From Candidatus Falkowbacteria bacterium (GTDB taxonomy: Bacteria; Patescibacteriota; Patescibacteriia; Patescibacteriales; SZUA-104), in assembly GCA_027020105.1 (NCBI GenBank), contig JALUVW010000077.1:1-36542 (forward strand): a stretch of 36,542 bases of DNA. The letters run 5' to 3'. The stretch's first letter is position 1. Every line of letters begins with the position of its first letter. Shown piece by piece: positions 5,273 to 34,986 of this stretch. The position numbers and the translations under genes are program-made. The notes below the pieces were generated by a model, which did no database searches, was not told where the DNA came from, and saw only the letters and a program-made list of their open reading frames with translations.

Positions 5273-5280
5273 TTTAATTA

Positions 5281-5397: not shown

Positions 5398-8016
5398 TTA
5401 TGGGCATTCGCTCCCGGCCGTCAACACCTCTCCGCAACAAGAAGGAAAAGCTTCCGTGGCCGCGCAATTCGGTCCGGCGCTCGGCTTAAAACAGTTTTGG
5501 TATATGTCTTTAACGCCGGAACCGACTTGCGAACGATAACTGGTCGCGTCGGAAAGCATTGAATGGTTAATCCGCGCCACCGTATAATCAGGGTATCCGT
5601 CCAAAGGGGGCGTATCAACGTTTTCTTTGGTAATCCAATAGCCGATCGGTTTGTTGTTGAAATTTCTGATATTTATCAATTTATGCTCAACCTTATTGTC
5701 GCCGTTGGACACCGTCTTGCTGCCGGTTTTCAAACTGTCCGACATCATCACCTTGCTGAAAGAAACCAATACCGGCTCGTTAAGAGAAACCCCCGAATAA
5801 TTATGTTCCGGTGAAATAAGATTGATTTTCGGCGGAGCCAAATCTATCGCGTCGCTAATATAAAACGACCACCGAAAATTATCCCCTCCCGGCCCTCCGG
5901 TATTTTCATTATAAAACGACACGGGAGCGTCGGCTTCTCCGTTTCTGTTGCCGTCCAATGAGTTGGAGGCGGTATCGGCAATTCCTTCCAACGGATAATT
6001 CGCGAGAGGATAATTTACGCCGTCTGAGTTTTGGCAAGCGTAGGAGGTTCCGACACTCGCGCAATTATTGTACGGCGTCTTATAAGCGCAATCGCTGTCG
6101 CCGGCGCATACGTCCAGCCGAGCGGCGACCATATCCACTTTTAAATTGGCGTTCTCCGGCAGGCAGTAAATCTTTTCTCCGCACCCGTTTACTCCGCATT
6201 GGTTGTCGGAGACAAACTCAACCGTTTTATAATTGTTGGAAACCGTAAAGCTGCCGCGAACGCAGACATCCGAACCGCAGTCAAAAAATTCCGAACCCGT
6301 ACAATCGCCGCTTACGCATTTTACGGCTATATAATCCTGCAAACTCTCGGCGTCGCCCGAAACCGTCAAAGGATTTACGGCTTCATTAAAGTTGATTTGT
6401 ATAACGGAGTTTCTCGGCTGATCCTTCTTGTCGTTTACGATGGTCGTCACTTCCCTGTCAGTTCCGCCGGACATGGGCGTTATGTCAATGGCGTCCGTAT
6501 TGCTGGTCGCCAACACAATATTGTTTCCGGAGCTGCCGGCGACTTTGGCGGTCACGAAAATTGAGCTTCCGGAGGTGACAAAACTGCCAAGAAGAGGATT
6601 TTTAACCAAAACGCCGGTAATATTGGACGCGGTCGCGGCCGTGGTTCCGCCAATGGCGATGTCCTCTCCGAAAACATAGGTTATATCGCCCGCGGTCAAT
6701 GTGTCCGCTTTTTGCTCGGCGGTGATGTCAACATTCCAAGAATTGCCGGCGCCGTAAGCGCCGTCGCCGGCAACGGTTAAGGTAAAATAACCCGGGAAAG
6801 TTACGGACGATCCGTTAAACGCGGCGGAACCGAGCAACACGCTTCCTTTGCTTAATTGCGCGGTTGAACCGTCCGATAAAATCGTAACCGTTAAAATTCC
6901 GCTCTCTTGATTGCCGCTGTCGGCAACCGCCTCGGCGTCGTTCCAATCGGCTCCCGACGGATTTTTGCCAACGCTCGCGACAACGGCGGGAACATAAACG
7001 TTCGGCTGGCCAACCACTCTTATGACGCCGCTTGCCGCCACGGCGTCGGTTATCGCGCCAACTTCGTCTTGCTCGTTGTCGGGCACGGGGAAAACGCCGC
7101 CTTCTTTAACTTGCGGCGGAGTCAGGTCCACTTTATTGCTGACTTTAAACTGCCACTCCATATAGTCGGCCGAACAAGTGGAGAAAATGCCGTTATTCGC
7201 GCCGCTCTTATCTCTTTTTTCTATTTCATTGGTTAAATGAACCGTATACCAAATATGCTCCGACGGCGAACCCAAATATTCAGTCGGAATAAAGACAAAA
7301 GTTTTATTGTCATTGGTGGCCACATTCACTTCAAGAACGTTTCCGTCGCAAGGGGGGCCGCAAGCGTCGCCGGCCGCGGTCTTGTAAATTCTGACATTTT
7401 CCGGAATTATATATTCTCCGGCATCGCAAACGCCGTTATTGTTGCCGCCCGCGTCATCGCAAAGAGTTGTCGGGTCAACCTCTTCCTTAAAAGTAATGAT
7501 AATGGCGGTGTTTCTCGGGACTTCTTCCTGGTTCGGCTCCGGATAAACGCTCTCAACCGTGCAACTCCCCAAGGCGCCGAGCCCCGTGCCCGCGTCGGGC
7601 GGACCGGCTCCCGGCCCCGGACCGCCGACTCTGGTCGCTCCCAAAAACTTGCTTAAAATAAACGTAACGATGCCGAACGACAACAAAATAATGGCCAGCC
7701 CGATAACCGCGTTTCTTAAAACTTGCTTGGCTTTTGTTATTCGCGATTCTTCGCCCCCCGAAGTCATCCAAAGAAATCCGGCATACATTATCAGGCCGAC
7801 AGCGATAATACCCAAGAAACCGATAAACACTCTGATTATTTTGGCCGCCAATATTCGCGGATCTTCGCTTCCCAACCCTATGGTGTTGCCGACTTCGTTC
7901 TGCGTCCCGCCCCAGAGCAAATTGTCCGCGCCTTGCGCCAAAGCGAAATTAACCGCGACGGACATGGCTGTCAACACGAAAAATATGACAATTAAATTTT
8001 TTGTTTTTTTTAGCAT
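5398..8016 (-). CDS. Large surface protein (872 aa), paralog of the giant gene. It has the same signal peptide and pilin-type two-TM hairpin, a Gly/Pro linker, several SbsA/Big_5-like Ig domains and Cys-rich segments.
   Basis: ORF-track protein. The N-terminus MLKKTKNLIVIFFVLTAMSVAVNFALAQ...IIRVFIGFLGIIAVGLIMYAGFLWMTSGGEESRITKAKQVLRNAVIGLAIILLSFGIVTFIL is ~75-80% identical to the first ~125 aa of the 1-5272 protein. Big_5-like segments: VESVYPEPNQEEVPRNTAIIITFKEEVDPTTL, DLTPPQV, DQPRNSVIQINFNEAVNPLTV, DLAPPKINLISPEHNYSGVSLNEPVLVSFSKVMMSDSL. Confidence 0.85.
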   Translation of the reverse strand: MLKKTKNLIVIFFVLTAMSVAVNFALAQGADNLLWGGTQNEVGNTIGLGSEDPRILAAKIIRVFIGFLGIIAVGLIMYAGFLWMTSGGEESRITKAKQVLRNAVIGLAIILLSFGIVTFILSKFLGATRVGGPGPGAGPPDAGTGLGALGSCTVESVYPEPNQEEVPRNTAIIITFKEEVDPTTLCDDAGGNNNGVCDAGEYIIPENVRIYKTAAGDACGPPCDGNVLEVNVATNDNKTFVFIPTEYLGSPSEHIWYTVHLTNEIEKRDKSGANNGIFSTCSADYMEWQFKVSNKVDLTPPQVKEGGVFPVPDNEQDEVGAITDAVAASGVIRVVGQPNVYVPAVVASVGKNPSGADWNDAEAVADSGNQESGILTVTILSDGSTAQLSKGSVLLGSAAFNGSSVTFPGYFTLTVAGDGAYGAGNSWNVDITAEQKADTLTAGDITYVFGEDIAIGGTTAATASNITGVLVKNPLLGSFVTSGSSIFVTAKVAGSSGNNIVLATSNTDAIDITPMSGGTDREVTTIVNDKKDQPRNSVIQINFNEAVNPLTVSGDAESLQDYIAVKCVSGDCTGSEFFDCGSDVCVRGSFTVSNNYKTVEFVSDNQCGVNGCGEKIYCLPENANLKVDMVAARLDVCAGDSDCAYKTPYNNCASVGTSYACQNSDGVNYPLANYPLEGIADTASNSLDGNRNGEADAPVSFYNENTGGPGGDNFRWSFYISDAIDLAPPKINLISPEHNYSGVSLNEPVLVSFSKVMMSDSLKTGSKTVSNGDNKVEHKLINIRNFNNKPIGYWITKENVDTPPLDGYPDYTVARINHSMLSDATSYRSQVGSGVKDIYQNCFKPSAGPNCAATEAFPSCCGEVLTAGSECP

Positions 8017-8035
8017 TGAATTTTTAGCATTAAAA

Positions 8036-8232
8036 TTAAAATGTAAATAGCAAAAATCAAAATGACAGTGTAAAATTTAAAATTAATTTTAGAAAATATT
8101 ACATAATCGGATTGCCGGCGCTTCTGATAAGCTTATAGATAAGCTATATTAAACGCGCTAAGGACCGGTAAAATAATTTTGCGTTTTTAATTGTCATTTT
8201 CCATTTTGATATTTAATTTTTAAATTTACATT
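8036..8232. repeat. AT-rich inverted-repeat element E2 (~200 bp, MITE-like), homologous to E6 in the opposite orientation
   Basis: Arms are caaaaatcaaaatgacagtg (8051-8070) and aattgtcattttccattttgatatt (8189-8213). The first ~60 nt and last ~45 nt align at ~90-95% with the reverse complement of 14995-15196. Confidence 0.8.
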
Positions 8233-10782: not shown

Positions 10783-10897
10783 AAAAACTCAAAATGCAAA
10801 GCTCAAAACGCAAAGCTACAGTTAAAAACTAAGAACTATGCGATTTTAAGATTTAAATTGCGGTTTTGAGTTTTGAGTTTTGAGCTTTGAGTTTTAC
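10783..10897. repeat. AT-rich inverted-repeat element E3 (aaaactc-type heptamers), same family as E8
   Basis: Left arm aaaactcaaaatgcaaagctcaaaacgcaaagctacag pairs with right arm gcggttttgagttttgagttttgagctttgagtttt. Confidence 0.8.
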
Positions 10898-10906
10898 TAT
10901 AAAATT

Positions 10907-11461
10907 ATGTATCAAATAAGAGTACACGGCCGGGGCGGGCAAGGAGTCGTCACCGCCGCCGAGCTAATCGCCATCGCCGCTTTTTACGACGGGAAAGTAT
11001 CGCAAGCGTTCCCCTTTTTCGGCGTGGAAAGAACCGGCGCCCCGATTGAATCTTACGCCCGCATTGACGACAAATTTATCAGAACGCGCGAACAAGTTCA
11101 CGCGCCAGATATTTTAATCGTGCAAGACTCCACCTTGCTTGGAGTGACGGATGTGGCAAGGGGAACCAGTAAAAAAACAATAGCCATAGTCAATTCAGCC
11201 AAGGAAAAAGATAAATTGAATATTGACTTGCCGAAAGAAAACATCTTCGTGATTGACGCCACCAAAATCGCCTTGGACAAAATCGGAAAAAATATAGTTA
11301 ACACCACTATTTTGGGGGCTTTCGCCCGCGCCACCGGATTAGTGAGTTTAAATTCGTTAAAACTTGCCATTAAAGAAAAATTCAAGGAAAAGGGCGACAA
11401 AATAATCAATAAAAATATTGAAGCGGTGGAGGTAGCATACAAATCTTCCGCCGAGCTTTAA
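10907..11461 (+). CDS. porG: Pyruvate/2-oxoacid:ferredoxin oxidoreductase, gamma subunit
   Basis: MYQIRVHGRGGQGVVTAAELIAIAAFYDGK... is a typical gamma-subunit N-terminus. ATG 10907 is preferred over the track's TTG 10880, which lies inside repeat E3. Confidence 0.85.
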   Translation: MYQIRVHGRGGQGVVTAAELIAIAAFYDGKVSQAFPFFGVERTGAPIESYARIDDKFIRTREQVHAPDILIVQDSTLLGVTDVARGTSKKTIAIVNSAKEKDKLNIDLPKENIFVIDATKIALDKIGKNIVNTTILGAFARATGLVSLNSLKLAIKEKFKEKGDKIINKNIEAVEVAYKSSAEL

Positions 11462-11474
11462 CATTATATAAACC

Positions 11475-11562
11475 TCTACCGATCTTTAGCTCGCCTTCGC
11501 CAGGTTTTAACCTGCCGAACAGCGGCTAAAGCCGCCCGAACCCTGGCCTGAAGGCCGGTAGA
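11475..11562. repeat. GC-rich palindromic element G1 (ggctaaagccgcc / cgaaccctggcct family)
   Basis: The outer arms pair: tctaccg...gccttcgccaggtt with aaccctggcctgaaggccggtaga. The 26-nt block cgaaccctggcctgaaggccggtaga recurs at 29075-29100 with one mismatch. Confidence 0.7.
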
Positions 11563-11577
11563 ATACAAATTTTACTT

Positions 11578-11847
11578 ATGAAAATAAATATCACGGCCAA
11601 GCCGGGATCAACCCGCAACAACAAAACCGGCGGTTGGCGAACATTTAAGCCAAAAACCGATTTAGACAAATGCATAAGTTGCGGCACTTGCGCCAAAGTC
11701 TGCCCGGAAGGTTGTATTGAAATGAAAAAAATCGCAAAATACGAACAGCTGAAACCGAAAACCGACTATAACTACTGCAAGGGTTGCGGCGTTTGCGCCG
11801 CCGAATGCCCGGTTAAGGCGATTGTTATGGAACTGGATAAAAAATAA
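11578..11847 (+). CDS. porD: PFOR delta subunit (2x[4Fe-4S] ferredoxin)
   Basis: Two cluster motifs: CISCGTCAKVCP and CKGCGVCAAECP. The protein is 89 aa and lies between porG and porA. Confidence 0.85.
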   Translation: MKINITAKPGSTRNNKTGGWRTFKPKTDLDKCISCGTCAKVCPEGCIEMKKIAKYEQLKPKTDYNYCKGCGVCAAECPVKAIVMELDKK

Positions 11848-11851
11848 TTAA

Positions 11852-11966
11852 ATTAAAATGTAAAAATCAAAAATCAAAATGACAATGCAAAATTTAAAAT
11901 TATTAAACTTTAAAAATTTTACACTTTAAATTGTCATTTTGATTTTTGATATTTAATTTTTAAATT
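11852..11966. repeat. AT-rich inverted-repeat element E4 between porD and porA
   Basis: Left arm aaaatgtaaaaatcaaaaatcaaaatgacaatg pairs with right arm aaattgtcattttgatttttgatatttaattttta. Confidence 0.8.
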
Positions 11967-11971
11967 ATTTT

Positions 11972-13159
11972 ATGAATAACAAAAATCAACAAATCCTTGA
12001 GGGTTCCAGGGCGATAGCTTTAACCATTAACAACATTGGGCCGGCTGTCATTTCCGCCTACCCGATCACCCCGCAAACCCATATCGTGGAGGACTTGGCC
12101 AAATTCAAGGCGGACGGAGACGCCGATTACGAATACGCGCGGGCGGAAAGCGAATTCGCGGCGGCCTCTATTGTGGAGGGAGCGAGCGCCGCCGGCGCGC
12201 GCGTCTATACCGCGACCAGTTCGCAAGGACTGCTTTTAATGGCGGAGGTATTGTTTAATATCGCCGGTATGCGCTTGCCGATCGTGGTGACCTGCGCCAA
12301 CCGCGGCGTTTCCGCGCCGATTACGATTTGGAACGACCAGCAAGACGCGATGACCATCCGCGACGCCGGCTGGATACAAATGTTCGCCGAAAACCATCAA
12401 GAAGCGGTTGACCAGCATATTATGGCCTACAAAATCGCCGAGCAAACGAATCTGCCGGTTATGGTCAATATTGACGGCTTTGTTTTAACGCATTCTTACG
12501 AACCGGTTATTATTCCCACCAGAGCGCAAATCAAAAAATACCTGCCGGATTATAAACCTAAAAAGGGACAATATTTGGACCCGGCCAATCCGGTTACCCT
12601 CGGCGCCTTCGCCCGACCCCAGCATTATATGGAAATCCGCCAAGACCTGCATAATGACCTGATGTCCAGTCTCAATTTAATTAACAAAGAGTATATTAAA
12701 TATAGAAAAACAATAAAAACAATGAAGTCCGACATCGGGTGCCCGATGTCGGACTTCGGAGCGGAAAATAACGGCTTAGTTGAATACTACGGCCCCAAAA
12801 AGCCTAAAATCATCTTAGTGGCGATGGGCTCGGTTATCGGAACGATAAAGGAAGTGGCGGATAAAACAAAAGGCGTCGGCGCGCTAAAAATAAAGACTTA
12901 CCGCCCGTTCCCCGAAGACGCGATTTTCAATATTTTAAAAAAGGCCAAATACGTGGCCGTTTTGGACAAATCCATATCGCTGGGGCATATCGGGCCGTTG
13001 GCTTCCGACATTAAATCGGCAATGCAGGGGAAAATCAAGGCTAAAATCCAAAGCTTTATAGTCGGATTGGGAGGACGGGATATTACGAAGGAAATGATTG
13101 GGGGAATTGTTAGGGAAGTTAAGAAAGGGGATGGTGGGGTGAAATTTATCGGGAAATAG
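11972..13159 (+). CDS. porA: PFOR alpha subunit
   Basis: 395 aa. AVISAYPITPQTHIVEDLA...YTATSSQGLLLMAEVLFNIAGMRLPIVV is typical of porA/korA alpha subunits. Confidence 0.9.
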   Translation: MNNKNQQILEGSRAIALTINNIGPAVISAYPITPQTHIVEDLAKFKADGDADYEYARAESEFAAASIVEGASAAGARVYTATSSQGLLLMAEVLFNIAGMRLPIVVTCANRGVSAPITIWNDQQDAMTIRDAGWIQMFAENHQEAVDQHIMAYKIAEQTNLPVMVNIDGFVLTHSYEPVIIPTRAQIKKYLPDYKPKKGQYLDPANPVTLGAFARPQHYMEIRQDLHNDLMSSLNLINKEYIKYRKTIKTMKSDIGCPMSDFGAENNGLVEYYGPKKPKIILVAMGSVIGTIKEVADKTKGVGALKIKTYRPFPEDAIFNILKKAKYVAVLDKSISLGHIGPLASDIKSAMQGKIKAKIQSFIVGLGGRDITKEMIGGIVREVKKGDGGVKFIGK

Positions 13160-13188
13160 AAAGATTTATGAATTAAGATTTATGATTT

Positions 13189-13317
13189 ATGAATAATGGA
13201 AAAATAAAATCATTTACTGATATTAAAGCATGGCAAAAGGGATATCACCCCGACGGCTCCATGCTTCGCGTGGAGCCGTCAAGGGCTTTAAAAAAATTCT
13301 TAAATCATAATTCGTAA
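13189..13317 (+). pseudogene. Remnant of a four-helix-bundle (23S rRNA intervening-sequence-type) protein gene, interrupted by a GC hairpin
   Basis: Translation is MNNGKIKSFTDIKAWQKGYH|PDGSMLRVEPS|RALKKFLNHNS. The first 20 aa match the family's characteristic N-terminus (F-x-D-L/I-x-x-W-Q-K). The middle segment is the hairpin gacggctcca...tggagccgtc. The remnant is 42 codons, against ~120 aa for intact members. Confidence 0.55.
13252..13280. repeat. GC hairpin G2 (GACGGCTCCA-N9-TGGAGCCGTC), upstream flank of the small pilin-type gene
   Basis: 10-bp perfect stem. It is related to the copy at 14101-14154 and shares the GCGTGGAG box with the 51-bp element at 15821-15871 and 30831-30881. Confidence 0.75.
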
Positions 13318-13328
13318 ATCCTAAATCT

Positions 13329-14069
13329 ATGAAAAAAATCCCTAAAATTATAGTATCAACATTCTTAACAATCTTCATCCTCCAAATGATAGGTCTAATA
13401 GTCTTATTGTCCGTTCCCGCGCAAGCGGCTGATGTGAAATTTAAACCTCAAATTGAAGTTCCCGGCTTGGAAAAAGGGCTTAAGGGCAGTAAAGAAGACG
13501 GGTATATAATTGAATCAACCACGATTGGCGAATACATTAAGGCCATCTATAAATACGCCATCGGCGTTGTCGGCATTTTGGCCGCGGTTGTGTTGATGAT
13601 CGGCGGAATCGTCTGGCTCACGGCCGGCGGAAACCAGACCAGAATCGGCGAAGCCAAGGCGTGGATAGGCGCGTCCCTGACCGGCCTGATTATCGCTTTA
13701 ACTTCGTATATGATTTTATGGACGGTTAATCCGGCGCTGGTGCGATTTAAGCCGATAAAAGTGGCGACGGTAACGGAACTAAAAAATGGATGCTGTGAAC
13801 TAAATAACGGAAAAGCGATGAATTCAACAGACACGGACTGCCCGGAAGACGTGGGAGTCTTCAACGACGGTAAAGTGGCAAGCGCCGACGGAAGCGCTTG
13901 CGTTAACAAAGAAACGGTGGTGGACTTAAAAGGATCCGGGCCCGGATGCTGCATCAAGCCCGGACTTTTCGGATATAATTGCGACTATGTCTCTTCTCAA
14001 GATGATTGCGACGATGGATATGAATTCCTTCTTGGCGTAAAATGTGAAGAAATTGATAAATGCCAATAA
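13329..14069 (+). CDS. Small TrbC/VirB2-like (CPR T4SS-pilin-type) protein with a Cys-rich C-terminal domain
   Basis: Signal/TM segment KIIVSTFLTIFILQMIGLIVLLSVPAQA, then IGEYIKAIYKYAIGVVGILAAVVLMIGGIVWLTAGGNQTRIGEAKAWIGASLTGLIIALTSYMILWTVNPALV (TM, GG loop, EAK, TM, INP-LV-like end). A ~100-aa tail with 12 Cys follows. Confidence 0.8.
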   Translation: MKKIPKIIVSTFLTIFILQMIGLIVLLSVPAQAADVKFKPQIEVPGLEKGLKGSKEDGYIIESTTIGEYIKAIYKYAIGVVGILAAVVLMIGGIVWLTAGGNQTRIGEAKAWIGASLTGLIIALTSYMILWTVNPALVRFKPIKVATVTELKNGCCELNNGKAMNSTDTDCPEDVGVFNDGKVASADGSACVNKETVVDLKGSGPGCCIKPGLFGYNCDYVSSQDDCDDGYEFLLGVKCEEIDKCQ

Positions 14070-14100
14070 CCCTGTTTGTTATTTAAAATTATAAAACTCA

Positions 14101-14154
14101 CGACGGATCCATGCTGCGCGTGGAGCCATAGCGCAAAGCGTGGAGCCGTCAAAG
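14101..14154. repeat. GC hairpin G3 (partially duplicated copy of G2), downstream flank of the small pilin-type gene
   Basis: cgacggatccatgctgcgcgtggagcc + atagcgcaaa + gcgtggagccgtcaaag, in the same orientation as G2. Confidence 0.7.
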
Positions 14155-14207
14155 TTGACAAAAAGTTAATCTTTAGTTAATCTTTAGTTAAACTTTAGTT
14201 AAAATTA
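14155..14207 (+). promoter_or_regulatory. Promoter of the first toxin-antitoxin operon, overlapped by four tandem 11-nt repeats (candidate operator)
   Basis: TTGACA (14155-14160), 17-nt spacer, TAATCT (14178-14183). Tandem repeats agttaatcttt / agttaatcttt / agttaaacttt / agttaaaatta span 14164-14207. Confidence 0.55.
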
Positions 14208-14224
14208 ATTAATCTTAAAAATAT

Positions 14225-14440
14225 ATGGAAAATATTATTAACTTAAAAAATTTAAGGGAAAATATGAGCGATTACGCCAAAAAAATCGCGCAAGGACAAA
14301 CTTTCATTGTTTTTAAACAGTCAAAACCGCTGTTTAAAATTTCTCCGGTGGACGAAGAAAGCCGATGGGAAGAAGTAATTGATTTTACTAAAATAAAAAA
14401 AGGAGGAGTTGATATTGATGAAGTGCTGTCCCGCCTGTAA
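14225..14440 (+). CDS. Type II antitoxin, Phd/YefM-like
   Basis: 71 aa. MENIINLKNLRENMSDYAKKIAQGQTFIVFKQSKPLFKISPV resembles Phd/YefM N-terminal domains. It lies directly upstream of a RelE/ParE-like gene. Confidence 0.6.
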   Translation: MENIINLKNLRENMSDYAKKIAQGQTFIVFKQSKPLFKISPVDEESRWEEVIDFTKIKKGGVDIDEVLSRL

Positions 14441-14490
14441 ATTATTCACTTCGTGGATCCCGAGTACTCGCTAACTTGCGAATTATTAAT

Positions 14491-14733
14491 ATGGACAAAA
14501 TATCAAAGGCCCTGAAAAAATTGACTGCTGAAGAGAAAAAAAGAATTAAAATAATTCTTATAAAATTGAAAAAAAACTCTCTTTCCGATTTTGACATTAA
14601 AAAATTAAAAGGGCATAGCGGTATTTACCGGATAAAAAAAGGAAAAATAAGAATTATATATAAAATTGATAAAGACGGAAATAAACGACTCTTAACGATT
14701 GAACGCCGAACCGATAATACTTACAATTTTTAA
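14491..14733 (+). CDS. Type II toxin, RelE/ParE family
   Basis: KKLKGHSGIYRIKKGKIRIIYKIDKDGNKRLLTIERRTDNTY matches the RelE/ParE core pattern (KL-G-x-YR-R-G-YR-IY...R). ATG 14491 is preferred to the track's TTG 14476. Confidence 0.7.
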   Translation: MDKISKALKKLTAEEKKRIKIILIKLKKNSLSDFDIKKLKGHSGIYRIKKGKIRIIYKIDKDGNKRLLTIERRTDNTYNF

Positions 14734-14776
14734 TTAAAATCCCCCGGCCCCCTTTAATAAATGGTGATAAAACGAT

Positions 14777-14992
14777 ATGATTTACTTCACCAAATACGCG
14801 GAAAAAAAATTTGATATACTGAATAAACACAAGGTTTATTTTACGCGCGAACAAGTGGAAGATGCCGTGAAGCTGCCCGACAAACTGGAGAAAAAAGGCA
14901 AATACTTGGCGGCGCGGAAGGATGGAGTGAAGGTGGTTTATATAATAGAAAATGAAATTATAAAAATTATAACCTTTTTTCCTGTAAAATAA
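14777..14992 (+). CDS. DUF4258-like small protein (putative toxin partner of DUF2283)
   Basis: 71 aa. YFTKYAEKKFDILNKHKVYFTREQVEDAV...VKVVYIIENEIIKIITFFPV fits the DUF4258 layout. Confidence 0.5.
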   Translation: MIYFTKYAEKKFDILNKHKVYFTREQVEDAVKLPDKLEKKGKYLAARKDGVKVVYIIENEIIKIITFFPVK

Positions 14993-14994
14993 TG

Positions 14995-15196
14995 GAAAAA
15001 TCAAAAATCAAAATGGAAAATGACAATTAAAAATGCAAAATTATTTTATCGGTTTAAAATATTTTAATATATCTTACCGTATGAGCCGCATTATTTAAGT
15101 AAAACAGGTAATCCAATTGCAATATTCTCTAAAATTAATTTTAAAATTTTACATTGTTATTTTGATTTTTGATTTTTACATTTTGATTTTTATTTT
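14995..15196. repeat. AT-rich inverted-repeat element E6 (~200 bp), inverted homolog of E2, inserted between the DUF4258 and DUF2283 genes
   Basis: Arms are aaaaatcaaaaatcaaaatggaaaatgacaatt and acattgttattttgatttttgatttttacattttgattttt. The ends align with the reverse complement of E2. Confidence 0.8.
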
Positions 15197-15406
15197 ATGT
15201 ATTACGACCCCGAAGCCAATATAATATCATGGGAAATCGCGCGAGGGAAAATCAGCCACGCGCGGGAGTTCGGCAATTTTATAATTCATTTGTCCAAATC
15301 AGGCAAACCGCTATTGATTGAAATACTGGACGCGTCGAGATTCGCGGGGCAATTTAACAAGCTGAAAAACGCGGAGGAATTAAGGAAAGTAGTGGCGGTA
15401 AATTAA
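15197..15406 (+). CDS. DUF2283 (YuzE-like) small protein, putative antitoxin partner of DUF4258
   Basis: MYYDPEANIISWEIARGKISHAREFGNFIIHLSKSGKPLLIEILDAS fits the DUF2283 pattern (YD-x-E-x-D...GxxxGIEILxAS). Confidence 0.6.
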   Translation: MYYDPEANIISWEIARGKISHAREFGNFIIHLSKSGKPLLIEILDASRFAGQFNKLKNAEELRKVVAVN

Positions 15407-15528
15407 AATGTAAAAATATTTTTAAACTTAAGCGACATAACATATGGAGCTAGGGTATTAGAGATTTTAACAAATTTTAAATAAATTCATTTTAAATTTT
15501 ACACTGTCATTTTGATTTTTGATTTTTG
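15404..15528. repeat. AT-rich element E7 (left arm truncated, right arm complete)
   Basis: The left end taaaatgtaaaaat matches the start of E4. The right arm is aaattttacactgtcattttgatttttgatttttg. Confidence 0.6.
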
Positions 15529-15559
15529 AATTATTTATTACAAACTGACAAGAAAAATT

Positions 15560-16546
15560 ATGCCTATGAAGCCAACAATGTCTAAAGTAAAAACAAAACA
15601 ACTATTATCCCCCGGCCATACCGCTTGCGCCGGATGCGGACAAATGATTGCCGCGAGAACCGTTGCCCAAGCGCTGGGACCGAACACTATTATCGCCAAC
15701 GCCACCGGCTGCCTTGAAGTGACGACAACCGCCTATCCTATGAGCTCGTGGGGAATGCCGTGGATACACTCCTTGTTTGAAAACGCGTCCGCCGTCGCCT
15801 CGGGAATAAAAGCGGCGTTGAAATATAAAGAGACTAAGTCTCCAATTGGAGACTTAGTCTCCACGCCTAAAGTTGTCGCCCAAGGCGGAGACGGAGGAAC
15901 TTTTGACATCGGCTTCGGCTTGATTTCCGGAATGTGGGAGCGAGGCGATGATATTCTCTATATCTGTTACGACACCGAAGCGTATTCCAATACCGGCATA
16001 CAAGCCTCCGGCGCCACCCCCTGGGCGGCGTCCACCACCACGACTCCGTCCGGTAAATGTATGAGTAAAACGAAGTCCGGTTTCGGCGGAGCGGATGAAG
16101 ATTGCCCGATTGACGCGATCGGCTCGCATCAAAGAAAAAAGGATATGATCGCCATCGCTTTGGCGCACAGATTGCGTTACGTGGCGCAAAGCACCGCCGG
16201 CTTCCCGGATGATATTGCCGCCAAGGTTAAAAAAGCCTTAACCTTTAAGGGTCCGAAATATATCCAAATTATGGCTCCCTGCGTGCCGGGATGGAAAATA
16301 AGTTCCGCGCAGGCGGTGCGGATAGGAAAATTGGCCGCCCAAACCGGACTTTACCCGCTCCTGGAGTATGAAAACGGACAACTGACGAATGTTCTAAAAG
16401 TCCCGAAACCGCGTCCGAAAGTGGATGAATACCTTAAACTGCAAGGCCGATTCGCGCATCTCTTTAAGAATAAAAGCGGAAAAAAGCAAATTGCCTATAT
16501 ACAAAAATTAGCTGACGGGAATATTGAGAAGTATGGTTTAAAATAG
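15560..16546 (+). CDS. porB: PFOR beta subunit (TPP-binding), carrying an in-frame 51-bp palindromic element
   Basis: Motifs GHTACAGCG, GGDGGTFDIGF and YDTEAYSNTG. Residues KYKETKSPIGDLVSTPK are encoded by 15821-15871. Confidence 0.9.
   Translation: MPMKPTMSKVKTKQLLSPGHTACAGCGQMIAARTVAQALGPNTIIANATGCLEVTTTAYPMSSWGMPWIHSLFENASAVASGIKAALKYKETKSPIGDLVSTPKVVAQGGDGGTFDIGFGLISGMWERGDDILYICYDTEAYSNTGIQASGATPWAASTTTTPSGKCMSKTKSGFGGADEDCPIDAIGSHQRKKDMIAIALAHRLRYVAQSTAGFPDDIAAKVKKALTFKGPKYIQIMAPCVPGWKISSAQAVRIGKLAAQTGLYPLLEYENGQLTNVLKVPKPRPKVDEYLKLQGRFAHLFKNKSGKKQIAYIQKLADGNIEKYGLK
15821..15871. repeat. 51-bp palindromic element, in-frame copy inside porB
   Basis: aaatataaagagactaagtctccaattggagacttagtctccacgcctaaa is the exact reverse complement of 30831-30881. 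The core GAGACTAAGTCTCCAATTGGAGACTTAGTCTC is a perfect 32-nt palindrome. The element is 17 codons and starts in frame (15821-15560 = 261). Confidence 0.95.
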
Positions 16547-25058: not shown

Positions 25059-26474
25059 TCAAATTACCGAATCTTTCTCCCAATTCTCCAATAACCCCCT
25101 GACAACCGCGCGGTCGTCCCAAGTAATCTTTTCGCCATCCGCCGCGCAAATCGCCTGTTCGCTGCCTTTGCCCGTTATCAAAACAATATCGTTTTCTTGG
25201 GCAAGAGCTAACGCCGTTTTAATCGCCTCGCGGCGATCCGCGATTTTAAACAAATCTTTGTTTAATTTTTTCCCTTTGTCCAACGCCCCTTCGGCGACTT
25301 GATCAATAATAACCAGCGGATCTTCGTCGTACGGGTCTTCGTTCGTAACAATAACGAAATCCGCGTTTTCTCCGGCCAATTCTCCAAGCCGCGGCCTGCG
25401 GGCGATATCGCGCCCGCCGCCGGTTGAGCCCAGAACATGGATTACTTTTTTATGCGGAATCAATTTTATCGTTTTGTACAGTTTTTCCACGGCGTTCGGC
25501 TCAAAAGCGTAATCAACAATTACCGTGAACGGCTGGCCTTCGTCTATTTTTTCCAAACGCCCGGCCACGCCTTCAATTTTTTCCAGCCCGTTTTTAATGT
25601 CTTTCTCGGAAAATCCTTGCGATAAAGCGACGCATACCGCCGTCATCGCGTTGACAACGTTAAAATCGCCCAAAAGACGCAATCTCACCTTTGTCTTGTT
25701 AAACGTGAATGTCGTGCCGTCCTTATCGGCTTCAACGCGTTGATAGCTTACCGTCTCAACGCCGTTCTTGTTTTTTCCGTCAAACTTGCTCCCCTCCTCG
25801 GTATAGGCGAATTTTCGTTCGCTCCAAAAATTTAAAAAATAATCGGCGTGATCATCGTCCGCGTTCGCTATTATTGTTTTTTTGACCCTGTTTAAATCCG
25901 TTTTTTTAAGGCCGCTTATTTTCCTATGGATAAATTTTTTGTCGTCCGCGTATTTTATTCCGCACCTTTTTAAATGCGCGAACAATTTTCCTTTGGCTTT
26001 TTTATAATTTTCAAAGCCGCCGTGCGAATCAATATGCTCCGGATAAAGTCCGGTAAAAACCAAAATATCGTAATTGATAAATCTGTGCCTGAACTGTTTT
26101 ACGCCCTCGGAGGTTGTTTCCACGATAGCGTATTGGCACTTGTGTTTAACCATTTTTTTTAATATTTTTTGCGTAAAAAAACGCCCCACCATAGTCATTT
26201 TTTTGTCATTCAGCCACTCCTTCTCCCCGTCGTTAAACATGGCGGTGGAAGTAAAACCGACTTTGCATCCGGCCTCCTCCAATGTTTTCGCGATCAGATA
26301 AACACTGGTGGTTTTTCCGGTCGTGCCGGTAACGCCGATAACGATTAATTTTTCCGAAGGCCGCCCGTACGCCAAAGAAGCGAGCCAGCTTAAAGTAAAA
26401 TGATAAATGGGCTGGAGGTTTTTGAATAATTTTTTAGGAATATATTTTTTTATAATATTTAAAATTTTTTCCAT
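25059..26474 (-). CDS. murE: Mur ligase family protein, MurE-type (UDP-MurNAc-L-Ala-D-Glu:diamino acid ligase)
   Basis: P-loop GVTGTTGKTT. Also ETTSEG, NYDILVFTGLYPEHID, LGDFNVVNA, VDYAFEPNA and GKGSE. 471 aa. Confidence 0.75.
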   Translation of the reverse strand: MEKILNIIKKYIPKKLFKNLQPIYHFTLSWLASLAYGRPSEKLIVIGVTGTTGKTTSVYLIAKTLEEAGCKVGFTSTAMFNDGEKEWLNDKKMTMVGRFFTQKILKKMVKHKCQYAIVETTSEGVKQFRHRFINYDILVFTGLYPEHIDSHGGFENYKKAKGKLFAHLKRCGIKYADDKKFIHRKISGLKKTDLNRVKKTIIANADDDHADYFLNFWSERKFAYTEEGSKFDGKNKNGVETVSYQRVEADKDGTTFTFNKTKVRLRLLGDFNVVNAMTAVCVALSQGFSEKDIKNGLEKIEGVAGRLEKIDEGQPFTVIVDYAFEPNAVEKLYKTIKLIPHKKVIHVLGSTGGGRDIARRPRLGELAGENADFVIVTNEDPYDEDPLVIIDQVAEGALDKGKKLNKDLFKIADRREAIKTALALAQENDIVLITGKGSEQAICAADGEKITWDDRAVVRGLLENWEKDSVI

Positions 26475-26483
26475 AAATACAAA

Positions 26484-26697
26484 GTTTAAAAATCAAAAAT
26501 CAAAATGACAGTTTAAAACGCAAAGCTTAAAAAAACTTTATAGAGCTTAATATATTTTACAGAATAAGTCGTGTTGTCGGGTGAAATCGGCAGAAACTTC
26601 CCGCTAAAGCGGGAAAGGTTGTATCGCGGTGAAAATTTTTAAATTTTTAAACTTTACATTGTCATTTTAATTTTTGATTTTTACATTTTGATTTTTT
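26484..26697. repeat. AT-rich inverted-repeat element E9 with a ~130-nt loop
   Basis: Arms are gtttaaaaatcaaaaatcaaaatgacagtt and actttacattgtcattttaatttttgatttttacattttgatttttt. The loop contains the hairpin cttcccgctaaagcgggaag. Confidence 0.8.
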
Positions 26698-29100: not shown

Positions 29101-29160
29101 AACCGCTTAAATATCTAATTAAATATCTAAAACTTGCTATTTTATTTAATCTGATAATCG

Positions 29161-29313: not shown

Positions 29314-30747
29314 TTACATTTTTCTCCTAACAACGCTAAACTCCGGAATCTCAACATTACTCTCAATAACCACAACCTTCCCCTGTCCTCCGTGCGCTTC
29401 TTCCAGCTCTTCGCCCGTTTCCGCGTCAACCATGCTTTTCAGCTTCATCTTTATTATATCATATCCCGGCATAATAATCTCAATCCTGTCTCCAACCTTT
29501 AAAGTATTATGAATTTTAATATTAACGGAATGCTTTGTTTTTTTATTTTTGCCCGCCCCTCGGAGCCTTGGCGCGGCGGGGCGTTTTGCTGTTTTTTCGC
29601 CGATAACCGCCCCGCAAAACTCCCACTCCGGCGTTTTATGCGAATTGTCCAAGTTCTGCGCCATTTTTCCGTTCCCGAACATAAATCCCTCCGTATATCC
29701 CCGATGATATAATTTCTCATCCAATTCTTTGTGCAGAAAATCTATATCCCCCTCGTAGAGACGAGGCAGTGCCTCGTCTCGGCGGCGGCAAGACGAACAA
29801 CGGAGACGAGGCAGTGCCTCGTCTCTACAAACTGCGTCTATCGCTTTTCTGTAAGCCCCGACCACGCAAGCCAAATAATAAACGCTCTTGGCCCTGCCCT
29901 CAATTTTAAACGAAGAAATGCCGGCGTCAACCATTTCCGGAATTCTTTTTATCAAGCACAAATCATTGGAATTCAAGATATACGACCCATGCTCCTCCTC
30001 AACCAACTCCAACGCCTCATCTCTGCCTTCCGCTTTTATAAATATCTCTTGGCTGTAATTTTGAACATTTGGATTTTGAATTTTGAATTTATTTGGAATT
30101 TGTAATTTTGAATTTGTAATTTTCGCGTTATACTTCCACCTGCACGGCTGAACGCAGTCGCCTAGATTGGCGCTCCTTCCCGTAAACAATTTTGACAAAA
30201 AACATCGCCCGGAATAAGCCATGCACATCGCGCCATGAACAAACGCCTCTATTTCCAGTTTCGGGTTGCTTTTCTTGATTTCTTTAATTTCGCGAATCGT
30301 TGTTTCCCGCCCCAACACAATCCGTTTAAATCCCTGTTCAAACCAAAACTTAGCCGCCTCCTTATTCACGCAGTTCGCCTGCGTTGACAAATGCATTTTA
30401 GCGCTCGGCCAAACCTTTCTAATCGCCATCATAACGCCCGGATCCGAAACAATAAACCCGTCCGGCTTTGCTTTTTTCAGCTCTCTGACATACGCCGGCA
30501 ATTTTTTGAAGTGTTTGTTGTGGGCGAAAATATTTATTGTTACGTAAACCTTTTTATTGATATTGTGGGCGTATTCAATCGCCTTCTTCAAGCTTTTGAC
30601 ATCAAAATCATTTATCCTTACTCGCAGGGAAAAATCCGGAATGCCCGCGTACACCGCGTCCGCCCCGAACGCGAAAGCCGTTTTCATTTTTTCAAAATTT
30701 CCGGCCGGCGCTATTAATTCCGGTTTTTCGTTTTTTTTATTGTTCAT
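29314..30747 (-). CDS. Peptidase U32 family protein (YegQ/TrhP/RlhA-like), carrying several in-frame repeat-element insertions
   Basis: KPELIAPAGNFEKMKTAFAFGADAVYAG, EAFVHGAMCMAYSGRCFLS, CVQPCRWKY and SFKIEGRAKSVYY. The start at ATG 30747 (MNNKKNEKPELIAPAG) is preferred to the track's 30813. Confidence 0.85.
   Translation of the reverse strand: MNNKKNEKPELIAPAGNFEKMKTAFAFGADAVYAGIPDFSLRVRINDFDVKSLKKAIEYAHNINKKVYVTINIFAHNKHFKKLPAYVRELKKAKPDGFIVSDPGVMMAIRKVWPSAKMHLSTQANCVNKEAAKFWFEQGFKRIVLGRETTIREIKEIKKSNPKLEIEAFVHGAMCMAYSGRCFLSKLFTGRSANLGDCVQPCRWKYNAKITNSKLQIPNKFKIQNPNVQNYSQEIFIKAEGRDEALELVEEEHGSYILNSNDLCLIKRIPEMVDAGISSFKIEGRAKSVYYLACVVGAYRKAIDAVCRDEALPRLRCSSCRRRDEALPRLYEGDIDFLHKELDEKLYHRGYTEGFMFGNGKMAQNLDNSHKTPEWEFCGAVIGEKTAKRPAAPRLRGAGKNKKTKHSVNIKIHNTLKVGDRIEIIMPGYDIIKMKLKSMVDAETGEELEEAHGGQGKVVVIESNVEIPEFSVVRRKM
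29755..29828. repeat. Two copies of the GTAGAGACGAGGCA-TGCCTCGTCTCTAC palindrome inside the U32 gene
   Basis: gtagagacgaggcagtgcctcgtctc (29755-29780) and gagacgaggcagtgcctcgtctctac (29803-29828) encode ...RDEALPRLRCSSCRRRDEALPRLY.... The same palindrome lies in an intergenic spacer at 27788-27820. Confidence 0.9.
30083..30116. repeat. Single arm of the E12 AT-rich element inside the U32 coding sequence
   Basis: ttgaatttatttggaatttgtaattttgaatttg is the exact 34-nt reverse complement of 29162-29195. It encodes part of KITNSKLQIPNKFKIQNPNVQNY. Confidence 0.9.
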
Positions 30748-30830
30748 AAAGAGATTATCGCCTAATGGGGCTGTTGCCGAATGCCGTTGCGAGTAAAATT
30801 TTTGAATCCCCAATCAAGTTTTTAGGCGTG

Positions 30831-30881
30831 GAGACTAAGTCTCCAATTGGAGACTTAGTCTCTTTATATTTGCAAAAAGAC
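30831..30881. repeat. 51-bp palindromic element, intergenic copy (exact inverted copy of 15821-15871)
   Basis: tttaggcgtggagactaagtctccaattggagacttagtctctttatattt. Confidence 0.95.
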
Positions 30882-30908
30882 TAAAATTTCAGCCGTGACG
30901 GTATTCGG

Positions 30909-30968
30909 CGACAGCCCCCTAATACCGAAGAACCCCGACGGAGCCGGAACTCCGTCGGCAACGGGAGC
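30909..30968. repeat. Two GC hairpins just downstream of the translin-family gene
   Basis: CGGTATT-N15-AATACCG (30909-30937) and CCGACGGAG-ccggaa-CTCCGTCGG (30945-30968). No U-run follows on the minus strand, so terminator function is uncertain. Confidence 0.5.
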
Positions 30969-30970: not shown

Positions 30971-31540
30971 CTATTTTCTCAGTTTTATTTCATAATCAAT
31001 CTGCTCTATCTTTCTCAAGTTTGTTTTTGCCTGATCAAACTTCGTCCTTAAATAGCCGGTGATGTCAAACTCCGCCAATTCCGCCATTATTTCATTAATG
31101 GCTTTTTTGATTTTTTCAACTTCTTCCAAATTTCCCGCGGACGCCTGATTGACCGCCCGCCGCACAAGCTCGCCGGTTAAGTCGCAAATGCCGCCCAGCA
31201 AACTGTCAATATCCATTTTGGTTTTGCTGATTTTATCCACCTTCTTGCCGGTCATTACGCGATAAAACATTTTTGCCTCAACATACTCTTCCGCCGCCGC
31301 CTTGTACGCCCCCTCTTCGGACAAGCGGCTATGGCCGAATTTTTTCTCCAAATCCGCGAGCGCGCGCTCGGCGCCATCCAATAACTCGGACGCTTTTTTG
31401 ACGTCCGTTCTGTGCAAAGAAAAAATAACTCTTTTGGAGTCGTGCAAAATAATATTGGACGCGCCGATTATTTGTCTCCTCTCCTCCGTCCGCTTGTCAT
31501 ATTTTTTCTTTAAATTTTGAATGAATTTTTTGTTAATCAT
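30971..31540 (-). CDS. Translin-family protein (COG2178-type predicted nucleic-acid-binding protein)
   Basis: SKRVIFSLHRTDVKKASELLDGAERALADL...AAAEEYVEAKMFY...LLGGICDLTGELVRRAV...GNLEEVEKIKKAINEIMAELAEFDITGYLRTKFDQAK follows the archaeal/CPR translin-like pattern (HR-D, QEYVEA, GL-D-GEL-R, LR-K-D). Confidence 0.6.
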   Translation of the reverse strand: MINKKFIQNLKKKYDKRTEERRQIIGASNIILHDSKRVIFSLHRTDVKKASELLDGAERALADLEKKFGHSRLSEEGAYKAAAEEYVEAKMFYRVMTGKKVDKISKTKMDIDSLLGGICDLTGELVRRAVNQASAGNLEEVEKIKKAINEIMAELAEFDITGYLRTKFDQAKTNLRKIEQIDYEIKLRK

Positions 31541-34960: not shown

Positions 34961-34986
34961 ATGGAATGTTTGTTTCAAACGCAAAA

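What the first reader, a model, noticed from the sequence alone, without database searches (positions are those of the whole stretch)
15821..15871. Exact 51-bp palindromic element inserted in frame in porB, with a twin in an intergenic spacer
Positions 15821-15871 are the perfect reverse complement of 30831-30881, which lies in the spacer upstream of the U32 gene.
- Core: a perfect 32-nt palindrome, GAGACTAAGTCTCCAATTGGAGACTTAGTCTC.
- In porB: the element starts on a codon boundary and adds exactly 17 codons (KYKETKSPIGDLVSTPK).
- Position: just before the conserved TPP-binding GGDGGTFDIGF.

This is the same behaviour as Rickettsia palindromic elements, selfish DNA that is tolerated as peptide insertions in essential proteins. 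Here it appears in a very different lineage, and the perfect identity implies very recent mobility.
Basis: seen in the sequence. Interest (0 to 1): 0.75.

Follow-up and report, generated by a model that had tools for sequence, protein, structure and literature searches.

The report
Tiny palindromic jumping element inside porB
A 32-base DNA palindrome in an essential metabolic gene (porB) belongs to a dispersed repeat family of ultrasmall Patescibacteria that often sits in frame inside housekeeping genes and is linked to a hairpin-cutting transposase, so it resembles REP/RAYT elements and the Rickettsia palindromic elements in a new lineage.

Summary
The repeat is real. An independent assembly, 99.9% identical, carries both copies.

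The family unit is not 51 bp. It is the 32-nt palindrome GAGACTAAGTCTC-CAATTG-GAGACTTAGTCTC, usually preceded by AAA. It occurs at about 30 non-orthologous sites in Falkowbacteria-like genomes.

- **In-frame copies:** more than half the sites lie inside long ORFs (TopA, PheS, LysS, AspS, UvrC, AckA and others). All use the only stop-free frame, reading (K)ETKSPIGDLVS.
- **PorB:** the element lies in a hypervariable helix-to-strand loop. KYK and the final K align with native residues, so "17 added codons" is wrong. The loop is 7-8 residues longer than minimal loops.
- **Transposase link:** in related genomes, IS200-like Y1 transposase genes carry and are flanked by these hairpins. Their best structural match is the E. 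coli REP-associated transposase.
- **Age:** cores stay identical between orthologous sites whose flanks are only 68-92% identical, so perfect identity does not prove recent movement.

Verdict: a new REP/REPIN-RAYT-like variant with Rickettsia-element-like in-frame behaviour. No transposase gene lies in the window, and mobility itself was not shown.

The parts
15830..15861 (.). 32-nt perfect palindrome (core) inside porB: two 13-nt sub-palindromes GAGACTAAGTCTC / GAGACTTAGTCTC around CAATTG. In the porB frame it encodes ETKSPIGDLVS (residues 91-101).
   Evidence: As single-stranded DNA it folds into a 14-bp hairpin, -13.2 kcal/mol, z = -6.6. Frames 2 and 3 contain TAG/TAA (read directly from the sequence).
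15821..15871 (+). 51-nt segment identical (as reverse complement) to 30821-30871: 9 nt AAATATAAA (KYK), the core, then 10 nt CACGCCTAAA ((S)TPK).
   Evidence: KYK and the final K align with native PorB residues of homologues.
15560..16546 (+). Host gene porB (pyruvate:ferredoxin oxidoreductase beta subunit, 328 aa), intact. The element lies in the loop between helix 76-93 and strand 104-110, upstream of the GDG motif.
   Evidence: Pfam PF02775. PDB 9bt4_C, E 2.4e-87, with a 7-residue gap at the loop. AF2 secondary structure.
30831..30862 (.). Second copy of the 32-nt core, intergenic.
30821..30871 (-). Twin of the 51-nt segment, in opposite orientation, in the Translin-U32 spacer. On the + strand it reads as hairpin + TTTATATTT (terminator-like), but the flanking genes are on the - strand.
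30767..30792 (+). Left arm of a larger inverted repeat that encloses the twin. L040:1077-1102 (downstream of uvrB in another genome) has a related arm next to a core.
   Evidence: The whole 30750-30940 stretch folds at -43 kcal/mol, z = -8.4.
30893..30918 (-). Right arm of the larger inverted repeat around the twin (GGGGCTGTCGCCGAATACCGTCACGG on the - strand).
29314..30747 (-). U32 peptidase gene downstream of the twin. Its start is the ATG at 30747; the listed TTG ORF start at 30813 is over-extended.
   Evidence: The identical 477-aa product P0241 was called in an independent assembly.
30971..31540 (-). Translin-like gene upstream of the twin.
   Evidence: Pfam PF01997.

Best explanation
**What it is.** The porB segment is one copy of a very short, non-autonomous palindromic repeat family of Falkowbacteria-like Patescibacteria. 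It resembles a miniature REPIN, that is, a pair of inverted REP hairpins.
- The unit is two inverted 13-nt mini-hairpins (GAGACTNAGTCTC) around CAATTG, 32 nt in all.
- An A-rich tag (usually AAA) lies on one side. A few variable, G-rich bases lie on the other.

**How it most likely spreads (inferred).** On single-stranded DNA the element folds into a hairpin. An IS200/IS605-type HUH tyrosine (Y1) transposase of the RAYT kind, encoded elsewhere in the genome, recognises and cuts it.

**Why genic copies look the way they do.** Only one of the three reading frames of the palindrome lacks a stop codon, and that frame is the same on both strands. Copies that land in genes therefore survive only in that frame and only in permissive surface loops. 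There they add the turn-forming peptide ETKSPIGDLVS.

**In PorB.** The copy occupies a helix-to-strand loop that is hypervariable in this phylum, on the N-terminal side of the strand that ends in the TPP-binding GDG motif. The enzyme is therefore probably unaffected.

**The 51-nt identity.** The two window copies share 9 + 10 extra bases that no other family member shares. One was therefore copied from the other, or both from a third copy. This happened either by ectopic gene conversion or templated repair between two cores, or by transposition of an over-long unit. The ends fall in sequence resembling the native loop (TATAAAGA on the left, CCTAAA on the right).

**Shown and inferred.**
- Shown: family membership, the single in-frame reading, the loop position, the association with the transposase gene, and the fold of that protein.
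- Inferred: that this transposase moves the element, the cleavage and target site, and the direction of copying.
For: 1. **Dispersed family.** The exact core occurs at 41 places (30 non-orthologous sites with at least 20 nt of flank), including at least 10 sites in Falkowbacteria MAG SZUA-104. All have unrelated flanks.
2. **Tag.** Positions -3 to -1 are A in 21, 26 and 26 of 30 sites. Position +1 is a pyrimidine in 25 of 30.
3. **Doublet unit.** The 13-mer occurs almost only in pairs. Changes in the two 13-mer loops are compensatory (TGA/TCA in L014, L023, L053).
4. **In-frame genic copies.** About 16 of 30 sites lie in ORFs of 200-784 aa, always reading ETKSPIGDLVS. Pfam places them within or between domains of TopA, PheS, LysS, UvrC, an IscS-like protein, AspS, GH57, AckA and a HypF-like protein. 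A paralogous domain in the same L004 protein lacks 13 residues at that spot.
5. **PorB.** None of the 29 aligned PorB homologues has the peptide. Other lineages carry other repeats or palindromes in the same loop. A relative at about 85% nt identity lacks the core at both window sites.
6. **Transposase link.**
   - L027:6204-6836 is a 210-aa Pfam Y1_Tnp protein (27.4 bits, cut-off 23). Hairpins with the same 13-mer flank it on both sides, and two more lie in frame inside it.
   - Its homologue in L032 (43% identical, E 1e-58) comes from a sample rich in exact cores. It has a degenerate core 20 nt upstream, a variant core 28 nt downstream and a variant in frame inside.
   - L057 carries the exact core in frame. 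L058, L059 and L069 carry 13-CAATTG-13 palindromes inside or next to the gene.
   - The family has 404 homologues, most with PF01797. The HUH motif (N.NHYH) and a Tyr (Y-V/I-N.N) are invariant.
   - An AF2 model (pLDDT 87.8) best matches 4er8_A, the E. coli REP-associated tyrosine transposase bound to a REP hairpin (E 3.6e-6, TMt 0.71). IS608 and ISDra2 TnpA follow.
7. **Not an artefact.** Independent assemblies agree.
Against: - No transposase gene lies in the window or in the 30-kb ENA contig, so the link is by family, not by genome.
- The RAYT-like proteins score far below NCBIfam's RAYT cut-off (25 bits against 80). Their sequence-level PDB matches are not significant.
- The classical REP tag GTAG is absent.
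- No empty/filled pair at high nucleotide identity was found, so the exact inserted length, the target and any duplication are undefined. The bases to the right of the core are not conserved even within one genome.
- L070, a seventh transposase locus, showed no such palindrome. L057 has no other core within 10 kb on either side.
- Cores remain 32/32 identical between diverged orthologous sites. That fits selection for a host function, or homogenisation, as well as it fits selfish spread.
- No excision or insertion polymorphism was observed, so mobility itself is inferred from distribution.
Confidence: 0.65

Rival explanations
1. One reading: a discrete 51-bp mobile element that transposed very recently into porB and added exactly 17 codons.
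For: - 51/51 identity with sharp boundaries, starting on a codon boundary.
- One other copy (L040:1143) shares the AAATATAAA left flank and has a related right flank, CGCGTCCAAT against CACGCCTAAA. A longer sub-family unit is therefore possible.
- A relative at 85% nt identity lacks both copies.
Against: - About 28 other non-orthologous copies share only the core plus AAA.
- Removing 17 codons would leave AAL|VVAQ, with no loop at all. Every aligned homologue has at least 9 residues there, starting with D/K-Y/Q-K and ending with K.
- L056 has the native sequence GAT TAT AAA GAA at the same place.
- Core identity is family-wide and persists across species.
Confidence: 0.15
2. A host-functional structured element, kept by selection rather than by selfish spread. 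Candidates are a terminator, an mRNA-stabilising hairpin, or a binding site for a dimeric protein.
For: - The core is perfectly conserved at orthologous sites whose flanks are 68-92% identical.
- The intergenic twin scores as terminator-like on the + strand and sits in a large hairpin just upstream of U32.
- L040:1143 lies between convergent genes in terminator orientation.
- REPs are credited with such roles in the literature (PMC3733652).
Against: - More than half of the copies lie inside coding sequences of unrelated housekeeping genes, where a terminator would be harmful.
- The twin's T-run is on the non-transcribed strand for both neighbouring genes.
- Single 13-mers are rare, so a simple protein-binding or uptake motif is unlikely.
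- No Rfam family matches.
Confidence: 0.15
3. A protein-level module: ETKSPIGDLVS is a selected functional peptide shared by many proteins.
For: The same 11 residues recur in many proteins.
Against: - The DNA is identical at every synonymous site across unrelated genes, and the same DNA occurs in intergenic copies.
- The sequence is a perfect palindrome.
- The host proteins share no function, and the sites are variable loops.
Confidence: 0.02
4. An assembly artefact or chimera created by a palindromic repeat.
For: A short-k Logan contig breaks inside the element.
Against: - Two further assemblies agree, and one spans both copies with 99.9% identity.
- porB is colinear with its homologues on both sides of the element.
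- Dozens of contigs from different studies span the same core.
Confidence: 0.01

Closest known systems
REP / REPIN elements with their RAYT transposases (Proteobacteria; Nunvar 2010, Bertels & Rainey 2011 PMC3116915, Di Nocera 2013 PMC3733652)
   Same: - Short (20-40 nt) palindromes dispersed in many copies.
- The replicative-looking unit is an inverted doublet that forms a hairpin.
- Copies flank an IS200-like Y1 transposase gene. That protein's model best matches the E. coli RAYT-REP complex 4er8.
- The transposase gene is syntenic between genomes: PMT_2 - RAYT - GT4 in both L032 and L057.
- The core stays conserved over long divergence.
   Different: - No GTAG tag; the tag is AAA.
- The doublet is only 32 nt and perfectly palindromic.
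- About half of the copies are intragenic and in frame, whereas REPs are by definition mostly extragenic.
- The transposase gene itself carries a copy in frame.
- The lineage is Patescibacteria.
- The protein fails NCBIfam's RAYT cut-off.
Rickettsia palindromic elements (RPE)
   Same: A selfish-looking palindromic repeat found in frame inside genes for functional, often essential proteins of a small-genome, host-dependent bacterium. It adds a peptide at tolerant sites (RPE behaviour as summarised in PMC3733652).
   Different: - RPEs are about 100-150 bp, by my recollection.
- They carry a CGTC tag and have no associated transposase (PMC3733652).
- Here the unit is 32-35 nt with no sequence similarity, and a candidate transposase exists.
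IS200/IS605 insertion sequences and their hairpin-only derivatives (PATEs)
   Same: An HUH Y1 transposase acting on DNA hairpins. A short conserved motif lies 5' of the hairpin, like the target or left cleavage site of IS608 (TTAC) (established knowledge). IS608 and ISDra2 TnpA are the next-best structural matches.
   Different: There are no distinct left and right ends and no tnpB. The element is a single symmetrical hairpin. The transposase genes look single-copy and syntenic rather than multi-copy.
MITEs (for example Correia, RUP, Nezha)
   Same: Non-autonomous, dispersed, able to form hairpins, sometimes in frame in genes.
   Different: MITEs are 70-300 bp with terminal inverted repeats and target-site duplications made by DDE transposases (PMC3733652). 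Here no consistent target duplication was seen, and the size is 32-35 nt.

Membership tests
REP/REPIN-RAYT system | Short (about 20-40 nt) palindromic repeat present in many dispersed copies per genome | tested here: met
   32-nt palindrome. At least 10 sites in the incomplete MAG SZUA-104, 30 non-orthologous sites overall, and 2 in this 36.5-kb window.
REP/REPIN-RAYT system | REPs organised as inverted doublets that form a hairpin (REPIN) | tested here: met
   The 13-mer GAGACTNAGTCTC occurs almost only as inverted pairs 6 nt apart. The hairpin folds at -13.2 kcal/mol. Loop changes are compensatory.
REP/REPIN-RAYT system | Conserved GTAG tetranucleotide at one end | tested here: not met
   The flank logo shows AAA at -3 to -1 and no GTAG. 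A different palindrome family in the same window does carry GTAG.
REP/REPIN-RAYT system | Predominantly extragenic location | tested here: not met
   About 16 of 30 sites lie inside long ORFs. Ten were verified by Pfam to lie within or between domains.
REP/REPIN-RAYT system | Cognate Y1 (IS200-like) transposase gene flanked by the repeats | tested here: met
   Met in related genomes: L027, L032 and L058 have same-family hairpins within 30 nt of the gene. L027, L032, L057, L058 and L059 have one in frame inside it. Not testable for the window's own genome, because no such gene lies in the window.
REP/REPIN-RAYT system | Transposase belongs to the RAYT clade | tested here: inconclusive
   Pfam Y1_Tnp passes (27.4 bits against 23). 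NCBIfam REP_Tyr_transpos gives 25 bits against a cut-off of 80. The Foldseek top hit is RAYT 4er8_A, E 3.6e-6. No phylogeny was made.
REP/REPIN-RAYT system | Transposase binds and cleaves the hairpin; the element excises and inserts | not testable with these tools
   Needs biochemistry or population read data.
Rickettsia palindromic elements | Sequence family of about 100-150 bp with a CGTC tag, in Rickettsia | tested here: not met
   The unit is 32-35 nt with no CGTC tag, in Patescibacteria. RPE features are from PMC3733652 and from memory.
Rickettsia palindromic elements | In-frame insertion in genes for functional proteins (behaviour, not membership) | tested here: met
   PorB, TopA, PheS, LysS, AspS, UvrC, AckA and others remain open and keep their domains.
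MITE | Terminal inverted repeats plus a target-site duplication, 70-300 bp | tested here: not met
   The whole unit is one 32-nt palindrome. No consistent duplication appears in 30 flank pairs.
Intrinsic terminator | G+C-rich hairpin followed by a U-run on the transcribed strand at a gene's 3' end | tested here: not met
   At the twin the T-run is on the + strand, while both neighbouring genes are on the - strand. The porB copy is inside a gene. Some family copies (L040:1143) do fit.

The most novel reading that the evidence does not exclude
Patescibacteria carry REPIN-RAYT-type systems whose hairpins have adapted to live inside coding sequences.
- The 32-nt doublet has a single stop-free frame that encodes a turn-forming peptide.
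- It colonises loops of essential enzymes, and it sits in frame in a conserved loop of its own transposase gene.
- Its core stays identical between species whose genes have diverged by 15-30%.

Together these would make it a long-lived, vertically inherited intragenic replicator. It could be a general source of the loop insertions seen in proteins of this phylum. The PorB loop would be a hotspot that different palindrome families have hit independently.
Probability: 0.4. Interest if true: 0.8.

Novelty: new variant of a known kind. Interest (0 to 1): 0.68.

Why it matters
- **Reach of a known system.** REP/REPIN-RAYT systems are known mainly from Proteobacteria and as extragenic DNA. In-frame palindromic insertions in essential genes are the hallmark of Rickettsia. 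Finding both features together in ultrasmall, host-dependent Patescibacteria would link two classic puzzles. No paper on this turned up in seven full-text searches.
- **A testable candidate enzyme.** RPE-like behaviour would gain a candidate enzyme that can be tested.
- **Protein insertions in this phylum.** It offers a DNA-level explanation for many lineage-specific loop insertions in proteins of this phylum.
- **Practical uses.** The element is a warning for annotation and for structure prediction. It is also a marker for strain typing and for contig breaks in metagenome assemblies.

Tried and rejected
- **Target-site duplication.** TAAA flanks the window copies on both sides, but the other 28 sites show no consistent duplication.
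- **DNA-uptake or single protein-binding motif.** The 13-mer is almost never single.
- **Native-flank hypothesis** (the 51-mer's flanks were copied from porB to the spacer). This is weakened because L040:1143, at a non-orthologous site, shares AAATATAAA and an outer arm with the twin. The direction of copying remains open.
- **Phage origin.** The viral-contig scan found only unrelated tandem repeats.
- **Known RNA family.** Rfam finds only a tRNA in the window.
- **Look-up of the exact PorB product.** Not on record. I reached the independent assembly through RpoC and U32 instead.
- **Sequence-only PDB searches with the transposase.** Not significant, singly or as a profile. Only the fold search was informative.
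- **Orientation of genic copies.** The A-tag is on the coding strand in about 10 and opposite in 3. This is a trend only, not significant.
- **PorB structure model.** Quality is mediocre (mean pLDDT 66), so I used it only for secondary structure.

Full report
**1. The observation**

Positions 15821-15871 read AAATATAAA-GAGACTAAGTCTCCAATTGGAGACTTAGTCTC-CACGCCTAAA. The identity stops sharply on both sides. The 32-nt centre is a perfect palindrome at 15830-15861 and 30831-30862. No shuffle of the window gave a match, even with three mismatches allowed.

The first copy lies in porB (15560-16546, 328 aa, Pfam TPP_enzyme_C). It starts on a codon boundary and reads KYKETKSPIGDLVSTPK, four residues before GGDGGTFDIGF. 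The second copy lies in the 223-nt spacer between a Translin-like gene and the U32 peptidase gene. The U32 start is the ATG at 30747.

Other assemblies of the same organism support this:
- An ENA contig (k141_233474, 99.9% identical) contains both 51-mers.
- A Logan contig, 100% identical, ends at 15842 inside the element, as short-k assemblies do at repeats.

This is not an artefact.

**2. The repeat family**

I scanned one genome per species, and JGI/ENA metagenomes, for the pair of 13-mers.
- The exact CAATTG-centred core occurs at 41 places, including at least 10 sites in the Falkowbacteria MAG SZUA-104.
- After merging orthologous sites, 30 sites with at least 20 nt of flank remain.
- All have unrelated flanks, so the shared unit is the 32-nt core, not 51 bp.
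- One side carries A at positions -3, -2 and -1 in 21, 26 and 26 of 30 sites. The other side starts with a pyrimidine (25 of 30) followed by a few G-rich, non-conserved bases.
- The 13-mer GAGACTNAGTCTC is almost never found singly.
- When its central base changes, the partner changes in a complementary way (L014, L023, L053). The long hairpin (-13.2 kcal/mol as DNA) is therefore what is preserved.
- Other lineages have variants with other spacers (GTTTAC, CAAGTG) or other stems (GGGACT...GTCCC).

**3. Behaviour in genes**

Frames 2 and 3 of the core contain TAG and TAA. Because the core is a palindrome, the single open frame is the same on both strands.
- About 16 of the 30 sites lie in ORFs of 200-784 aa, always reading (K)ETKSPIGDLVS.
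- Pfam places ten of them within or between domains of DNA topoisomerase I, PheS, LysS, AspS (GAD domain), UvrC, an IscS-like aminotransferase, a GH57 enzyme, acetate kinase and a HypF-like protein.
- In one protein (L004), a paralogous copy of the same domain lacks 13 residues exactly there.

**4. The PorB site**

I aligned 29 homologues of 69-85% identity. The stretch between AAL-[D/K]-[Y/Q]-K and K-[V/I]-VAQGGDGG is hypervariable in length.
- The shortest loops have 9 residues (KQKGDTKTK).
- The closest relatives have 15-19 residues made of other repeats, for example the heptamer AAATCCG repeated five times in L054. Others carry other palindromes (P0023, P0078, P0102, P0112).
- The window's KYK and final K align with native residues. 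L056 has GAT TAT AAA GAA where the window has AAA TAT AAA GAG.
- The element therefore did not simply add 17 codons. Against minimal loops, or against the solved PFOR beta subunit 9bt4_C, the excess is 7-8 residues.
- The model places residues 94-103 in a loop between helix 76-93 and strand 104-110. That is the N-terminal end of the strand whose C-terminal end carries the GDG motif. In alpha/beta folds this end usually faces away from the cofactor. That last point is inference, not a test.
- A relative at about 85% nucleotide identity (L061; PorB P0004, U32 P0242) lacks the core at both sites.

**5. The twin**

The twin is nested in a larger inverted repeat (30767-30792 against 30893-30918). 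The whole stretch folds at -43 kcal/mol with z = -8.4.

A copy downstream of uvrB in another genome (L040:1143) shares one outer arm, the core and the AAATATAAA flank. It is 78% identical over 112 nt, at a non-orthologous place. The left flank may therefore belong to a longer sub-family unit or reflect a target preference.

The 10 nt to the right (CACGCCTAAA) are shared only by the two window copies, so the two are directly related by a copying event. I cannot decide between ectopic gene conversion or templated repair ending in microhomology, and transposition of an over-long unit.

The bases just to the right of the core differ between otherwise conserved orthologous sites: CGGG against CAAT, and CGCG against CGTA. 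This would fit short conversion tracts.

**6. Link to a transposase**

- In L027, three single hairpins and one doublet surround a 210-aa ORF (6204-6836). It is a Pfam Y1_Tnp (IS200-like) protein, 27.4 bits against a cut-off of 23. Its only NCBIfam hit is REP_Tyr_transpos, below cut-off.
- Hairpins lie 15 nt upstream and 10 nt downstream of that ORF, and two more lie in frame inside it.
- A homologue (43% identical, E 1e-58) lies in L032, from the sample richest in exact cores. It has a degenerate core 20 nt upstream, a variant core 28 nt downstream and a CTATTG variant in frame.
- The family has 404 database homologues, mostly PF01797 and named Patescibacteria. Two are called RayT by JGI. The HUH motif and a Tyr motif are invariant.
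- L057 carries the exact core in frame, and its gene is syntenic with L032. L058, L059 and L069 carry 13-CAATTG-13 palindromes inside or beside the gene. L070 shows none.
- An AF2 model (pLDDT 87.8) has as best PDB match 4er8_A, the E. coli REP-associated tyrosine transposase bound to a REP hairpin (E 3.6e-6, TMt 0.71). IS608 and ISDra2 TnpA follow.

**7. Age**

At 12 pairs of orthologous filled sites the flanks are 68-92% identical. The core is 32/32 identical in ten pairs and 30/32 in two, where the difference is a swap of the two loop bases. The core is thus conserved or homogenised far beyond its coding surroundings. Perfect identity is a property of the family, not proof of a recent jump.

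**8. Comparison and verdict**

By architecture and by its associated enzyme, this works like a REP/REPIN-RAYT system (definitions from PMC3116915 and PMC3733652). By its effect on proteins, it works like the Rickettsia palindromic elements.

It fails two classical REP criteria, the GTAG tag and an extragenic location. It is not an RPE or a MITE.

Seven full-text searches found no description of such elements in Patescibacteria or the Candidate Phyla Radiation (one search concerned RPEs only).

I rate it a new variant of a known kind. Mobilisation by the Y1 transposase, the cleavage and target site, and the origin of the 51-nt identity are inferred, not shown.

Noticed in passing
window 27795-27813, 29760-29778, 29805-29823; L049:1126-1144: A second palindrome family, GTAGAGACGAGGCA(C/G)TGCCTCGTCTCTAC. 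It carries the classical REP GTAG tag and the same GAGAC/GTCTC foot. Two copies lie in frame inside the U32 gene (RDEALPRL twice) and one is intergenic. The same element sits in frame in a protein of another genome.
   Followed up: partly
window 5275-5399, 8029-8090, 8153-8227, 11846-11970, 14985-15053, 15116-15204, 15466-15540, 26472-26534, 26621-26703; also 30043-30122: An abundant AT-rich repeat family (AAAATCAAAAATCAAAATGACAA...) fills most intergenic spacers, often as inverted pairs. A related unit lies in frame inside U32 (IQIPNKFKIQNPNVQNY).
   Followed up: no
window 11525-11563, 29063-29101, weaker 34927-34965: A 39-nt motif with two small hairpins followed by GGTAGAA, 90% identical between two intergenic sites, with a compensatory change in the first stem. 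It could be another GTAG-type REP or a small structured RNA.
   Followed up: no
window 10880-16546; L056: The por operon is split. porG, a small ORF (probably porD) and porA are followed by about 2.4 kb holding a T4SS-pilin-like gene, a Phd-like antitoxin gene and a DUF2283 gene, and only then by porB. A relative's locus has a similar layout, with a pilin-like gene and small ORFs before porB.
   Followed up: no
window about 27986-27996 against L060:10339-10458: The otherwise 99.9% identical ENA assembly has about 109 extra bases here, bounded by the direct repeat CACCTCCTTTTT. This is an indel polymorphism within the population: either a deletion between direct repeats or a small insertion.
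   Followed up: partly
PorB homologues P0002-P0112 (alignment A1); L054:146-1144: The PorB loop before the GDG strand is a hotspot. Different lineages carry different repeats or palindromes there. A second variable site follows TTTTPSGKC (window residues about 166-181, CMSKTKSGFGGADEDC).
   Followed up: partly
L027:6204-6836, L032:1312-1977, L057:10001-10711, L058:1545-2258, L059:10001-10717, L069:3276-3950: The RAYT-like transposase genes each carry a palindrome in frame at the same variable loop (model residues about 61-69, low pLDDT). The palindrome sequence differs between lineages. It may be a master copy or an autoregulatory site.
   Followed up: partly
L027:6161-6189: The hairpin upstream of the L027 transposase gene also forms the in-frame C-terminal end of the preceding 442-aa flavoprotein-like ORF (...GTHLETKSPSGIMEQI*).
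   Followed up: no
window 5021-5273 and 7765-8017: A 253-nt direct repeat, 86% identical. One copy covers the 5' end of the 872-aa pilin/Ig-like gene. The other lies 2.7 kb away and may be a remnant of a paralogue.
   Followed up: no
L015 and L002 host proteins: Other recurrent peptide inserts occur in the same proteins (SPLIKGVGG, PPTPFIKGA, LLSRCGGDYQGG / LLPRCGGGYQGG). They suggest further in-frame repeat families in these genomes.
   Followed up: no
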